A stretch of 62,605 bases of DNA, the filler included, from Rhabdomonas costata (lineage: Eukaryota): the NCBI GenBank assembly GCA_019059605.1. It is 25 parts of 25 records of this genome, joined end to end, with 100 filler letters (N's around TTAATTAATTAA, not from the genome) between each part and the next. Parts side by side here need not be neighbours in the genome. Positions count along the whole stretch, not along the records: positions 15,052 to 17,461 come from JAHMHO010003566.1; 24 more parts are not named here. The stretch is one strand, 5' to 3'. Both the position numbers and the translations under genes were made by a program. Within the stretch, counting starts at the first letter, position 1; every line of letters begins with the position of its first letter. The notes under the pieces were generated by a model, which was not told the DNA's origin, made no database searches, and worked only from the letters and a program-made list of their open reading frames with translations. Positions 15,053-17,461 of the stretch are shown piece after piece.

Positions 15053-17461
15053 TCTGTGAAAGCCACAAGGACGGAGTTGCATCAACATGAGCCAGCTATG
15101 TCGACCTCTTGGGCAGTAGTTGGGTGGGCATGCAGGTTTCCGGCTTCAATAGAGGATCCGTTTCAATTTTGGGAAGCTTTGTGTTCTGGGATTGATGCTG
15201 TTGTTGAGGTTCCGTTTGAGCGATTTGACGTAGATGTGCACTTCAATCCTGACCCTGACGTTCGAGGGAAGATGTATGTTCGAGAGGCTGCATTTATATC
15301 GGGTCTGGACTCCTTTGATGCGAGCTTCTTCGGTATCTCCCCTCAAGAGGCAACCGCGATGGATCCACAGCAGCGCCTTGTGGCAGAAGTGGGCTACGAA
15401 GCACTGCGATCGGCGGGCTGCACGAAGCAGTCACTGATGGGCAGCAATACGGGTGTCTTTGTGGCATCGATGGCATACGACTTTTACAAGCATCGCCAAG
15501 ACGGTTCTGGTGGGGCGTTTGGAGCTGCGGGTTCTGCCCAGTGCATTCTTGCCAATCGCTTCTCGTTCCTTTTCGGCTTGAAGGGTCCCAGTCTTACCTG
15601 TGACACCACCTGCTCTTCATCGCTGGTTGCAACCAACCTAGCTTGCATGAACTTGCAGACAAGGCAATGTGCGGAAGCAGTTGTGGTTGGAGCTAATGTC
15701 ATGCTCTCGCCGGGGCCATTCATTGAAGAGTGTGCGGCTCGAATGCTCAGTCCTGATGCACGCTGTCACACTTTGGATGCCAGAGCCAATGGCTATGTTA
15801 GAGGCGAAGGCTGTGGGGCCGTGGTGTTGCGTCCTGAAACTTCGGGGGGAAACTCTTTGGCCTTCGTTCGAGCATCCGCGGTGAACCAAGACGGTAAAAC
15901 AGCCACGTTGACCGCCCCCAACGGGCCCTCGCAAGAGGCCGTTATCAGATTTGCAATGCAGCAGGCCAATCTCATGGAAAGCGAACTGGGTTTTGTCGAA
16001 CTTCACGGGACCGGGACTGCTCTTGGGGATCCTGTGGAGGTTCATGCCTTGAAAGCTGTTCTGGGAAATACAGGTCGTCGCAGTCCGCTTGTGCTTGGGG
16101 CTGTGAAGACGAACATTGGGCACTTGGAAGGTGCGGCAGGGATGGCGGGGCTGATGAAGACCCTTCTTGTACTGCAACACCGGCAAGCCCCTCCCAACCT
16201 GCACCTGCAGCAGCTGAATGGGCTTTTGGATGCTGAGGGGTTTGAGATTGTGCTTCCGACAGCGAGCACATCGATTGTGAGTCGAGAGGAGTCCAAGAGC
16301 AGGGTTGTCACGGGCGGAGTGAGCTCCTTTGGGTTTGGAGGGACGAATGCCCATGTCATTGTGCAAAGCTCGAGGGACGCAATGGCTGAAGCTTCGGATT
16401 TGGAGTCATCCCGGAAGCGGAGAGTTGCGATGGTCTTCACAGGCCAAGGCCATGAATACGCTGGGATGTGCAAACGTTTGTTTGAGAGTGATGAGGCCTT
16501 CCGAGGAAGTCTTGAGACCTTGGCATTTATCGCAGCTCCTTTGCTGCCTTTTGAGTTTTTGGGGGAGGTGCTCAAATCGGAGCCGTCGGCTTGGATGCGA
16601 GAGACGGTGTGCTCGGATATGGCGCTTTTTGCGATACAATATTCCCTTGCTTGCGTCCTTCAGCAGCGAGGTGCGGAGCCAGTCGCTGTGCTTGGGCATG
16701 GAGTCGGGGAAATAGTTGCCGGTTGTGTATCCGGGAACGTTTCTCTGGAGGACGGAATCCTGATGGTCGCGGAGCAGGCACGGCAGATACAACTGCAGCC
16801 CAGCGGGGGAGGAATGGAAGTCTTGAATGCTTCGGAAGAGGAGGTGAGGGAAACCCTGGCGGAGCTTTCTTCAGAGGTGCGGCAGACCAGCATTTCCGCC
16901 GTGAATGGACCTAAGCAAACCGTGATTTCTGGGCCTATTTTGGAGCTCATTGCTGTTGCCGAGCGACTTGGGGTAGATCACCACAGGCTGGAGGTTTCCC
17001 AAGCTTTGCAATGCCCCTTGATGGCTCCAGTGAGTGAATGCCTTGCGAGAGTGATAGAGAAAATGAAGTTTGTCTCGCCCCATCCTTCGGTGGAGATTTG
17101 TTCGGCCGTCTTTTCTCAAGCGGTCAAACCGTGTCCAGAAGGGGGATTTTGGGCAACGCGTTGTTGTTCGCCGGTGGACTTTCCGTCCTGCAGTTTTCTG
17201 GAGAACTGTCGAGACTGTGATTGCGTCCTTGCTTTGGCTTCTCCCCCTCAGTGGCTTTGTGGACCTTTTCGTATTATTCGGTGTATGGATTTTGAGGGGA
17301 GTTTGTTGATTCCTTTTTGTCCTGCGATCGCATGCAATGAACGCCCCAGAGTTAGTGCTTTGCGTGGGCGGTTTCCGTGGCGATCATGGCTTCCGAATCG
17401 GCTGCTGACACGACAGAGCGCTGGTTCAGGATTCGAGGCTGTTATCTGCGGGAAACTTCAA
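15053..17461 (+). CDS. Type I modular polyketide synthase fragment: KS, degenerate AT, start of DH; open at both contig ends, no introns
   Basis: KS motifs MDPQQR, DTTCSSSL (Cys), ELHGTGT (His), KTNIGHLEGAAG (His), GVSSFGFGGTNAHVI; AT start VFTGQG and AVNGPKQTVISG; post-AT linker RFPW..PNRLL. Confidence 0.95.

What the first reader, a model, noticed from the sequence alone, without database searches (positions are those of the whole stretch)
16420..17330. PKS module with an intact KS but a catalytically dead, full-length AT domain (possible cis-to-trans-AT intermediate in a protist)
Seen in sequence: in an uninterrupted ORF, the AT nucleophile motif reads GHGVGE (GGA at 16700-16702) instead of GHSxGE. 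The HAFH(S) motif reads QALQC (17000-17014), the malonyl-binding Arg position reads AEQARQ, GQGSQ reads GQGHE, and the C-terminal EIGP motif is eroded to ALASPP. The KS keeps its Cys-His-His triad. Established knowledge: Ser, His and Arg are required for acyl transfer, and trans-AT PKSs retain only AT remnants and rely on a free-standing AT. Inference: several independent losses without any frameshift suggest the domain is kept as a structural or docking scaffold while the module is loaded in trans or by another module's AT. This would be a recent route to trans-AT logic in a eukaryotic, probably euglenozoan, PKS.
Basis: partly seen in the sequence, partly recalled or inferred. Interest (0 to 1): 0.72.

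Follow-up and report, generated by a model that had tools for sequence, protein, structure and literature searches.

The report
Dead acyltransferase domain in eukaryotic PKS
A short contig from a fragmented eukaryotic assembly carries part of a polyketide synthase gene whose ketosynthase looks working, while its acyltransferase keeps its fold but has lost every catalytic residue; this is a rare but already known kind of dead domain.

Summary
The ORF at 15053-17461 encodes a KS-AT didomain. Against solved and database ATs, the AT has Gly for the nucleophile Ser (GGA 16700-16702), Gln for the catalytic His, and Gln for the carboxylate-binding Arg. Both conserved Gln residues are also replaced. 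None of 538 full-length AT hits lacked Ser, Arg and His together.

The loss is selective. All 6 active-site columns changed, but only 4 of 36 other highly conserved columns did (Fisher p=4e-5). AlphaFold2 models the AT core confidently, and the KS keeps Cys-His-His.

The context needs correcting. The window is 25 unrelated ~2.4 kb contigs joined by artificial linkers. The ORF is cut at both ends and has no genomic neighbourhood. The stretch after the AT core is eroded.

The closest named relatives, at about 40% identity, are Chromera velia megasynthases with 3-4 KS but only one AT. Shared or trans loading therefore already exists in this clade.

Ser-less ATs in bacterial PKSs, and a non-functional AT in Toxoplasma TgPKS2, are published. 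AT displacement in algal PKSs has also been proposed. I could not check reads, expression, a stand-alone AT or dN/dS.

Verdict: a real dead AT and a new member of a known kind. The "cis-to-trans intermediate" reading is plausible but untested.

The parts
15052..17461 (.). One 2410-nt contig, bounded on both sides by artificial N44-TTAATTAATTAA-N44 linkers (14952-15051 and 17462-17561). The neighbouring DNA in the window is unrelated.
   Evidence: (25 segments of 2400-2438 nt)
15053..17461 (+). ORF of 803 codons, open at both contig ends. The first ATG is at 15098; residue numbering in this report starts there (788 aa).
   Evidence: There are 0 in-frame stops, against 2-16 per region in the other five frames.
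15113..16369 (+). Ketosynthase domain (residues 6-424). Catalytic Cys172 is at 15611-15613, His303 at 16004-16006, Lys337 at 16106-16108 and His342 at 16121-16123.
   Evidence: Pfam PF00109 1.8e-73 and PF02801 3e-38; CurL KS 6.7e-120; pLDDT about 90 or more; residues. The query keeps 84 of 101 highly conserved KS columns.
16370..16417 (+). Very short KS-to-AT connector. There are 29 residues between the KS end motif and GQG, and no ~100-residue KS-AT linker domain.
   Evidence: This short-linker form is seen in only 12 of 625 KS-AT pairs among the fetched proteins, including the Chromera ones. The KAsynt_C_assoc hit is below its cutoff (28.9 against 33 bits).
16418..17233 (+). Acyltransferase core (residues 441-712). 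The fold is retained and all active-site residues are replaced.
   Evidence: PF00698 4.2e-27; PDB alignments; pLDDT about 85-97; 32 of 36 non-catalytic conserved columns kept
16442..16456 (+). GQGHE in place of GQGSQ. E453 sits on a column that is Gln in 516 of 538 hits.
16616..16618 (+). D507 in place of the Gln of the TQPALF motif (Gln in 501 of 538 hits).
16694..16711 (+). GHGVGE in place of GHSxGE. G535 (GGA, 16700-16702) sits on the nucleophile Ser column (Ser 530, Gly 8 of 538).
16775..16777 (+). Q560 on the carboxylate-binding Arg column (Arg in 523 of 538 hits).
17000..17014 (+). QALQC in place of HAFHS. Q638 sits on the catalytic His column (His in 524 of 538 hits), and C639 on a column that is Ser in 483 and Cys in 22.
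17234..17461 (+). Eroded end of the AT and the post-AT stretch (residues 713-788). ALASPP (17231-17248) stands for E-I-G-P-x-P, FPW (17372-17380) for WPW, and NRLL (17396-17407) for the HPLL motif that precedes the DH domain in relatives. The stretch is in frame, without a stop, and is cut by the contig end.
   Evidence: pLDDT below 50. Relic motifs read by eye against relatives. E712 and G714 are near-invariant columns in alignment A1. GC by codon position is 0.57/0.56/0.43, against 0.62/0.46/0.56 in the AT core. P(no stop in 88 codons) = 0.03.

Best explanation
This is a fragment of a eukaryotic multimodular type I PKS/FAS-like gene. It belongs to a clade in which the KS abuts the AT directly.

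**What is shown.** The KS keeps its Cys-His-His(-Lys) machinery. The AT keeps the alpha/beta-hydrolase-plus-ferredoxin fold but has Gly for the Ser nucleophile, Gln for the His base, Gln for the malonyl-carboxylate Arg, and Glu and Asp for the two conserved Gln. It therefore cannot form an acyl-enzyme or bind malonyl-CoA in the canonical way.

**What is inferred.**
- AT catalysis became dispensable because the module's carrier protein is loaded by another AT. That AT could sit in the same megasynthase, as implied by relatives with 3-4 KS and a single AT, or could be free-standing.
- The domain persisted in frame because a stop or frameshift would cut off downstream domains, and because its fold supports the condensing region.
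- Its C-terminal end and the following linker are drifting. This makes it a candidate stage on the way to an AT-less module.
For: **Dead active site.** Alignments to solved ATs are. Column counts over 538 full-length AT hits are. None of the 538 lacks Ser, Arg and His together, and none differs at all 6 active-site columns. No GxSxG occurs elsewhere in the protein.

**Selective rather than general decay.**
- 6 of 6 active-site columns changed, against 4 of 36 other columns that are at least 85% conserved. Fisher p=4e-5, or 3e-4 if the Ser/Cys column 639 is dropped.
- Non-catalytic retention is 89%. That is within the range of active ATs (mean 94%); 19% of them score at or below the query.

**Fold.** AlphaFold2 gives pLDDT of about 85-97 over residues 440-710. 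The top Foldseek hit is the CurL KS-AT didomain, E 6e-74.

**ORF maintenance.** There are 0 stops in 803 codons, and P(no stop) for the AT plus tail is 1.6e-7 from composition. All homology lies in one frame. GC by codon position is the same in the KS and the AT core.

**KS.** The catalytic residues are intact.

**Family context.**
- In an ML tree the query groups with P0238, next to the Chromera and marine-eukaryote clade. The long-linker bacterial sequences form their own clade with 100% support.
- Relatives carry 3-4 KS per single AT, or no AT at all (names).

**Precedent.** Ser-less ATs and the inactive TgPKS2 AT3 are described in PMC9301873 (section 10 read). AT displacement in algae is proposed in PMC4661987 (abstract and passages).
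Against: - No relative above about 50% identity was found in any search. There is therefore no evidence that the dead state is conserved, and no dN/dS.
- Expression and reads could not be checked.
- The gene is known from one 2.4 kb contig with both ends open, so downstream domains, a carrier protein and any other AT are unseen. No genome is held.
- The KS itself is divergent. It keeps 84 of 101 conserved columns, which is the 5th percentile of homologues, with 17 unusual replacements. Its terminal branch is long (0.59).
- The last 75-88 residues look like drifting sequence. pLDDT is below 50, the stretch is rich in Cys, Trp, Arg and Pro, and the codon-position GC pattern differs.
- The AT/KS branch ratio of 2.61 is raised but not unique. 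Three ATs with canonical active-site residues among the other 22 taxa reach 2.4-4.3.
- The homologue sample is whatever my searches returned. It is not an unbiased census.
Confidence: 0.55

Rival explanations
1. The piece is a pseudogene or decaying paralogue. It would be a duplicated PKS module that is no longer used, and the open frame would only reflect that too little time has passed.
For: - The tail at residues 701-788 has a non-coding-like composition and very low model confidence.
- The KS keeps only 84 of 101 conserved columns, the 5th percentile of homologues.
- Both the KS and AT terminal branches are long.
- The assembly is highly fragmented and nothing is known beyond 2.4 kb.
- There are no expression data.
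Against: - Neutral decay should hit conserved columns evenly. Instead 6 of 6 AT active-site columns changed against 4 of 36 others (p=4e-5). All four KS catalytic residues are intact.
- There is no stop in 803 codons, where composition alone predicts P=1.6e-7 for the AT plus tail.
- There is no frameshift.
- The codon-position GC signature is intact through the AT core.
Confidence: 0.3
2. The AT-like domain has taken on another role. It could be a docking platform for a free-standing AT or another trans-acting enzyme, or a catalyst using different residues.
For: - The fold is retained at the level of active ATs, with 32 of 36 structural columns kept.
- The model confidence over the core is high.
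- Cys residues lie next to two former active-site positions, C543 and C639.
Against: - No relatives share the substitutions, so no new conserved motif can be shown.
- Cys at column 639 also occurs in 22 of 538 ordinary ATs.
- There is no GxCxG at the nucleophile elbow.
- This reading overlaps with the best explanation, apart from claiming a positive new function.
Confidence: 0.08
3. The contig is a contaminant or an artefact. It would be a bacterial contig or a chimeric or mis-assembled sequence inside a eukaryotic assembly, and the substitutions would be errors.
For: - The contig is fully coding and has no intron, whereas other contigs carry short exons. One of them has a GT-AG intron.
- Its trinucleotide composition is the third most distant of the 25 contigs.
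Against: - No bacterial genome or metagenome contig comes closer than 39% identity in the AT or about 52% in the KS.
- The nearest named relatives over the whole KS-AT are eukaryotic.
- GC (0.544) and CpG observed/expected (0.79) are within the range of the other contigs. A fully coding contig is expected to differ somewhat in trinucleotides.
- KS-AT collinearity matches relatives without a break.
- Six separate codon replacements cannot be a base-calling slip.
Confidence: 0.05

Closest known systems
Ser-less, predicted-inactive AT domains in bacterial cis-AT PKS assembly lines (bengamide, desertomycin, conglobatin, gephyronic acid), as listed in PMC9301873 section 10 (read)
   Same: An integrated, full-length AT inside a type I PKS module lacks the GHSxG serine. 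Eight of 538 full-length AT hits in my own sample also have Gly at this column.
   Different: Those eight hits keep the catalytic His, and some also keep the Arg. Here Ser, His, Arg and both Gln are all gone, which none of the 538 hits shows. The host here is a eukaryote, and the KS-AT linker domain is absent. I did not examine the four named bacterial systems myself.
Toxoplasma gondii TgPKS2 AT3 (PMC9301873)
   Same: It is a non-functional integrated AT in a protist multimodular PKS that is still expressed. The authors leave open whether it stops extension or whether another mechanism loads the module.
   Different: TgPKS2 AT3 keeps all canonical catalytic residues and is silenced by a single Gln-to-His change. 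The AT here has lost all of them. I did not verify whether D507 here lies on the same Gln column as their Q72.
Chromera velia megasynthases Cvel_19857 (P0184) and Cvel_6161 (P0182)
   Same: These are the closest named relatives: 40% identity over 717 residues of KS-AT. They share the short KS-AT junction and fall in the neighbouring clade of the ML tree. They are multimodular, with AT-less modules.
   Different: Their single AT has the canonical GQGSQ, GHSLGE, Arg and HAFH. Their post-AT segment keeps E-x-GP, WVPSLD, WPW and HPLL.
Trans-AT (AT-less) PKS modules with AT-docking remnants
   Same: The module cannot load itself and would depend on an AT acting from elsewhere.
   Different: By recalled knowledge, trans-AT modules keep a linker or docking remnant after the KS and have no AT fold. 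Here the AT fold is complete through its core and the linker domain is missing. The KS scores higher against cis-AT KSs (CurL 404 bits, PikA 343, DEBS 325) than against 'AT-less' KSs (303 or fewer).
The model of AT displacement in trans in algal type I PKSs (Shelest et al. 2015, PMC4661987)
   Same: It proposes that integrated ATs were displaced to give trans-AT PKSs in eukaryotic algae (abstract and passages). This contig would fit as an intermediate.
   Different: That paper argues from the presence or absence of AT domains. Its main text does not contain the words inactive, remnant or degenerate. Its supplements were not opened.

Membership tests
Type I PKS/FAS ketosynthase (PF00109 + PF02801) | Sequence match above the curated cutoffs | tested here: met
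   247.7 and 130.9 bits against a cutoff of 20.8
Type I PKS/FAS ketosynthase (PF00109 + PF02801) | Cys-His-His catalytic triad (with Lys) | tested here: met
   C172 in DTTCSSS, H303 in HGTGT, and K337 and H342 in KTNIGH. The role of each motif is recalled knowledge.
Acyl_transf_1 / malonyl-CoA:ACP transacylase fold (PF00698) | Sequence and fold match | tested here: met
   95.9 bits against a cutoff of 32.7, profile positions 3-247 of 319; CurL AT 1.4e-31; pLDDT 85-97; Foldseek hits to KS-AT didomains
Catalytically competent AT (as in a cis-AT PKS module) | Ser nucleophile in GHSxG and the catalytic His of (H/Y)A(F/S)H | tested here: not met
   G535 and Q638. These columns are Ser in 530 and His in 524 of 538 hits.
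Catalytically competent AT (as in a cis-AT PKS module) | Arg that binds the extender-unit carboxylate, and the two conserved Gln (GQGSQ and TQPALF) | tested here: not met
   Q560, E453 and D507. The roles of these residues are recalled from the FabD literature.
Canonical cis-AT condensing region (KS - linker domain - AT - post-AT linker) | A ~100-residue KS-AT linker domain and the LPTYPFQ-type post-AT linker | tested here: not met
   There are 29 residues between the KS end and GQG, against 123 in a cyanobacterial example. Only 12 of 625 KS-AT pairs share this form. The post-AT stretch is eroded.
Trans-AT PKS | No integrated AT fold after the KS (only a docking remnant) | tested here: not met
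   The AT core is full length.
Trans-AT PKS | A free-standing AT encoded elsewhere that loads the modules | not testable with these tools
   No genome is held for this window. The other 24 contigs show no AT or KS among their ORFs of at least 110 aa.
Processed or unitary pseudogene | Stops, frameshifts, or evenly spread loss of conserved residues | tested here: not met
   There are 0 stops in 803 codons and a single frame of homology. The loss is concentrated on active-site columns. Lack of expression was not testable.

The most novel reading that the evidence does not exclude
The domain is a living intermediate of AT displacement in a eukaryotic assembly line. It would be a fold-preserving pseudo-AT, kept because it positions or docks the AT that now loads the module. 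The loading AT could belong to another module or be free-standing. This would be the stage between integrated-AT and AT-less modules that the algal AT-displacement model predicts but does not document.
Probability: 0.2. Interest if true: 0.6.

Novelty: new member of a known kind. Interest (0 to 1): 0.35.

Why it matters
Integrated ATs that have lost catalysis are described as rare (PMC9301873). How AT-less modules arose in eukaryotic PKSs is inferred only from the presence or absence of domains (PMC4661987).

This AT has lost its entire catalytic set but kept its structural core, and it sits next to a KS with intact catalytic residues. If the gene is expressed and complete, it would give a concrete object for asking two questions. 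What does a dead AT do in a megasynthase? How is such a module loaded? On present evidence it is a single truncated contig, so its value is as a lead and not as a result.

Tried and rejected
- **Whole-genome census of PKS and AT genes.** No genome is held.
- **Closer relatives, for conservation of the dead motifs and for dN/dS.**
  - Word-index searches of the AT part, near and longer lengths, gave at best 29-40% identity.
  - The whole protein gave a best KS match of 52%.
  - The full HMMER scan was dominated by giant multi-KS proteins, with summed scores and a best identity of 49%.
  - Metagenome and prokaryote genome DNA scans gave at best 39%.
  - Proteins shorter than 433 residues were never searched.
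- **Alternative frames or a frameshift in the tail.** tblastn with 10 relatives found homology in one frame only.
- **An in-frame intron removing the eroded tail.** I considered this from the sequence and rejected it, because it would delete the E-x-GP segment that relatives keep.
- **Taxon clues.** Rfam gave 0 matches. Tandem repeats were uninformative. The euglenozoan guess could be neither supported nor excluded.
- **ESM Atlas look-alikes of the AT part.** They returned only ordinary AT clusters.
- **Literature.** 'inactive acyltransferase domain' + 'trans-AT' gave 1 paper, which I did not read. Searches with 'active site serine' + 'lacks' and with Euglena produced listings only, with nothing on dead ATs in protists beyond PMC9301873.
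Full report
**What the window is.** The 62,605-base window is not one stretch of genome. It is 25 segments of 2400-2438 nt, joined by identical N44-TTAATTAATTAA-N44 linkers that place stops in all six frames. 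The finding lies wholly inside one 2410-nt contig (15052-17461). Its neighbours in the window are unrelated contigs and give no genomic context.

The other contigs carry short exon-like fragments of eukaryotic genes: protein kinase, WD40, mitochondrial carrier and C2/SMP. One kinase contig has a GT...AG intron rich in (GT)n. The assembly is therefore a fragmented eukaryotic genome. No RNA family was found.

**The observation.**
- The contig is one open frame from its first to its last base: 803 codons, with the first ATG at 15098.
- Pfam finds the KS N- and C-terminal domains (1.8e-73, 3e-38) and Acyl_transf_1 (4.2e-27; 95.9 bits against a cutoff of 32.7; profile 3-247 of 319).
- HMMER alignments to solved structures (CurL 4mz0 and two others) put GQGHE on GQGSQ and GHGVGE on GHSVGE. 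They put Q560 on the first Arg of aaRGrlMq, and QALQ on HAFH.
- Among 538 full-length AT hits in the 460 proteins I had fetched, the columns read as follows: Ser 530 and Gly 8; Arg 523; His 524; Gln 516 (GQGSQ); Gln 501 (TQPALF).
- No hit lacks Ser, Arg and His together (the most is two of three), and none differs at all six active-site columns. The query differs at all of them.
- There is no GxSxG elsewhere in the protein.
- The KS has C172, H303, K337 and H342.

The roles I give these residues are recalled from the FabD and PKS literature, not from a call.

**Selective loss or general decay.** I took the columns that are at least 85% conserved among the 508 hits carrying Ser, Arg and His. 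There are 42, and the query keeps 32. The ten changes include all six active-site columns. Of the other 36 columns, 32 are kept (89%). Active ATs average 94%, and 19% of them score no higher than the query. Six of six against four of 36 gives Fisher p=4e-5, or 3e-4 if the Ser/Cys column 639 is left out.

Further evidence that the core is intact:
- AlphaFold2, run with a 36-sequence alignment, models residues 440-710 at pLDDT of about 85-97 and the KS at about 90 or more.
- Foldseek's best match is the CurL KS-AT didomain (E 6e-74). The global TM-score is only about 0.5, because the two domains sit differently.
- GC by codon position is the same in the KS (0.61/0.49/0.55) and the AT core (0.62/0.46/0.56).
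- There is no stop in the coding frame, against 2-16 per region in the other five frames. Composition alone gives P=1.6e-7 for the AT plus tail.
- tblastn with ten relatives finds homology in one frame only, reaching contig position 2338.

Taken together, this is the signature of a domain whose catalysis became dispensable while its fold and reading frame stayed under constraint.

**What weakens that reading.**
- The last 75-88 residues are different from the rest. pLDDT is below 50. They are rich in Cys, Trp, Arg and Pro, and GC by codon position is 0.57/0.56/0.43. The absence of stops there is only mildly unlikely (P=0.03).
- Against relatives, the tail still shows relic motifs in the right order: E-x-GP as ALASPP, WVPSLD as LIPFCP, WPW as FPW, and HPLL as NRLL (read by eye, apart from E712 and G714). 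It looks like drifting coding sequence, not an intron.
- The KS is also divergent. It keeps 84 of 101 conserved columns, the 5th percentile of homologues, with 17 unusual replacements.
- On a fixed ML topology, the query's terminal branches are 0.59 (KS) and 1.54 (AT). The ratio of 2.61 compares with 1.55 for the whole tree. Three ATs with canonical active-site residues among the other 22 taxa reach 2.4-4.3. The AT is therefore accelerated but not uniquely so.

**Relatives.** Nothing close exists in any collection I could search.
- The AT part gave at best 29-40% identity and 39% in metagenome and prokaryote genome DNA.
- The KS gave at best about 50-52%.
- Proteins shorter than 433 residues were not searched.
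- The best whole KS-AT matches with a name are Chromera velia Cvel_19857 (40% over 717 residues) and Cvel_6161. A Salpingoeca infusionum protein gives the best KS match.

The query shares with these an unusual junction. About 29 residues connect the KS to the AT, instead of the ~100-residue linker domain. Only 12 of 625 KS-AT pairs in my sample have this form. In an ML tree of KS+AT with 23 taxa chosen by me, the query pairs with a metagenome protein (P0238). It sits next to the Chromera and marine-eukaryote group. The long-linker bacterial sequences form their own clade with 100% support.

The relatives' ATs carry the canonical active-site motifs. The relatives themselves mostly have AT-less modules: Cvel_19857 has 3 KS and 1 AT, Cvel_6161 has 4 and 1, two unnamed proteins have 4 and 1, and the Salpingoeca protein has 4 and 0. 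Sharing one AT among modules is therefore already the rule in this clade. That makes a dispensable AT in one module unsurprising.

The 'euglenozoan' guess has no support from any call. At 40-49% identity, the named relatives do not fix the taxon either.

**Mechanism.**
- Shown: the KS residues needed for condensation are present. The AT cannot form the acyl-Ser intermediate, lacks the general base, and lacks the carboxylate clamp.
- Inferred: the module's carrier protein, which is not on the contig, is loaded by another AT in the same protein or by a free-standing one, or the module does not extend.
- Inferred: the dead AT is kept because it is structurally part of the condensing region, and because a frame-breaking mutation would remove whatever lies downstream.

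I put this at 0.55. A decaying paralogue is at 0.30, a new function for the domain at 0.08, and a contaminant or artefact at 0.05. On the last rival, composition is within the range of the other contigs for GC and CpG and is third most distant of 25 in trinucleotides. No bacterial sequence is close.

**Comparison with what is known.**
- D'Ambrosio et al. 2022 (PMC9301873; outline, passages and section 10 read) state that inactive ATs are rare. [quoted passage not shown] They show that AT3 of Toxoplasma TgPKS2 is non-functional through a single Gln-to-His change, with all canonical residues kept.
- In my own sample, eight full-length ATs have Gly at the nucleophile. They come from bacterial or metagenome proteins, and all eight keep the His.
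- Shelest et al. 2015 (PMC4661987; abstract and passages) propose that algal PKSs evolved by displacing integrated ATs in trans. The words inactive, remnant and degenerate do not occur in the main text, and the supplements were not opened.
- Tomcala et al. 2020 (PMC7464705; passages) list the two Chromera proteins and note AT-less modules as typical of algal PKSs.
- The domain is not a trans-AT docking remnant. The AT fold is present and the linker domain is absent. The KS scores higher against cis-AT KSs than against AT-less ones.

It is a new member of a known kind. It is notable for how complete the catalytic loss is and for its eukaryotic, short-linker setting. It rests on one truncated contig, with no reads, no expression, no orthologues and no view of the rest of the gene. 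Interest is 0.35.

Noticed in passing
whole window; linkers such as 14952-15051 and 17462-17561: The window is a concatenation of 25 contigs of 2400-2438 nt, joined by N44-TTAATTAATTAA-N44 spacers that put stops in all six frames. Any reading that uses neighbouring genes across a spacer would be wrong.
   Followed up: yes
window 16370-16417; proteins P0184, P0182, P0238, P0301, P0070, P0082, P0102, P0002: A minority KS-AT architecture in which the AT follows the KS after about 10-40 residues, without the usual ~100-residue linker domain. It occurs in 12 of 625 KS-AT pairs in my sample. It is shared by Chromera velia, marine-eukaryote transcripts and some unnamed metagenome proteins.
   Followed up: partly
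protein P0070: A 3920-residue protein has four near-identical KS-AT modules of the same short-linker clade. Its source names it as an uncharacterised protein of the sperm whale. It may be a contaminant in that assembly or an animal FAS-like PKS.
   Followed up: no
window 14794-14951: A (GCAAC)n / (GCAAA)n pentanucleotide satellite with 31.6 copies runs to the end of the preceding contig. A (CACAT)n array lies at 20147-20210.
   Followed up: no
window 41804-42159: A GT...AG intron of about 350 nt, rich in (GT)n, splits a protein-kinase domain (…EMATG | DHPW…). This shows that the assembly has spliceosomal introns.
   Followed up: partly
window 22607-25014 and 45176-47582: These two contigs are compositional outliers among the 25. 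The first has GC 0.418 and the largest trinucleotide distance; the second has the next largest. They may be organellar, repeat or foreign DNA.
   Followed up: no
window 7922-8437 (+) and 29563-30009 (-): Two different contigs each carry a fragment of an alpha/beta-hydrolase or X-Pro dipeptidyl-peptidase (S15) like gene.
   Followed up: no
proteins P0211, P0161/P0339, P0242, P0039: Bacterial or metagenome megasynthases carry one to three AT-like domains with Gly at the nucleophile, some truncated and some full length with His retained. Ser-less ATs made up 17 of 540 AT hits in the first sample.
   Followed up: partly
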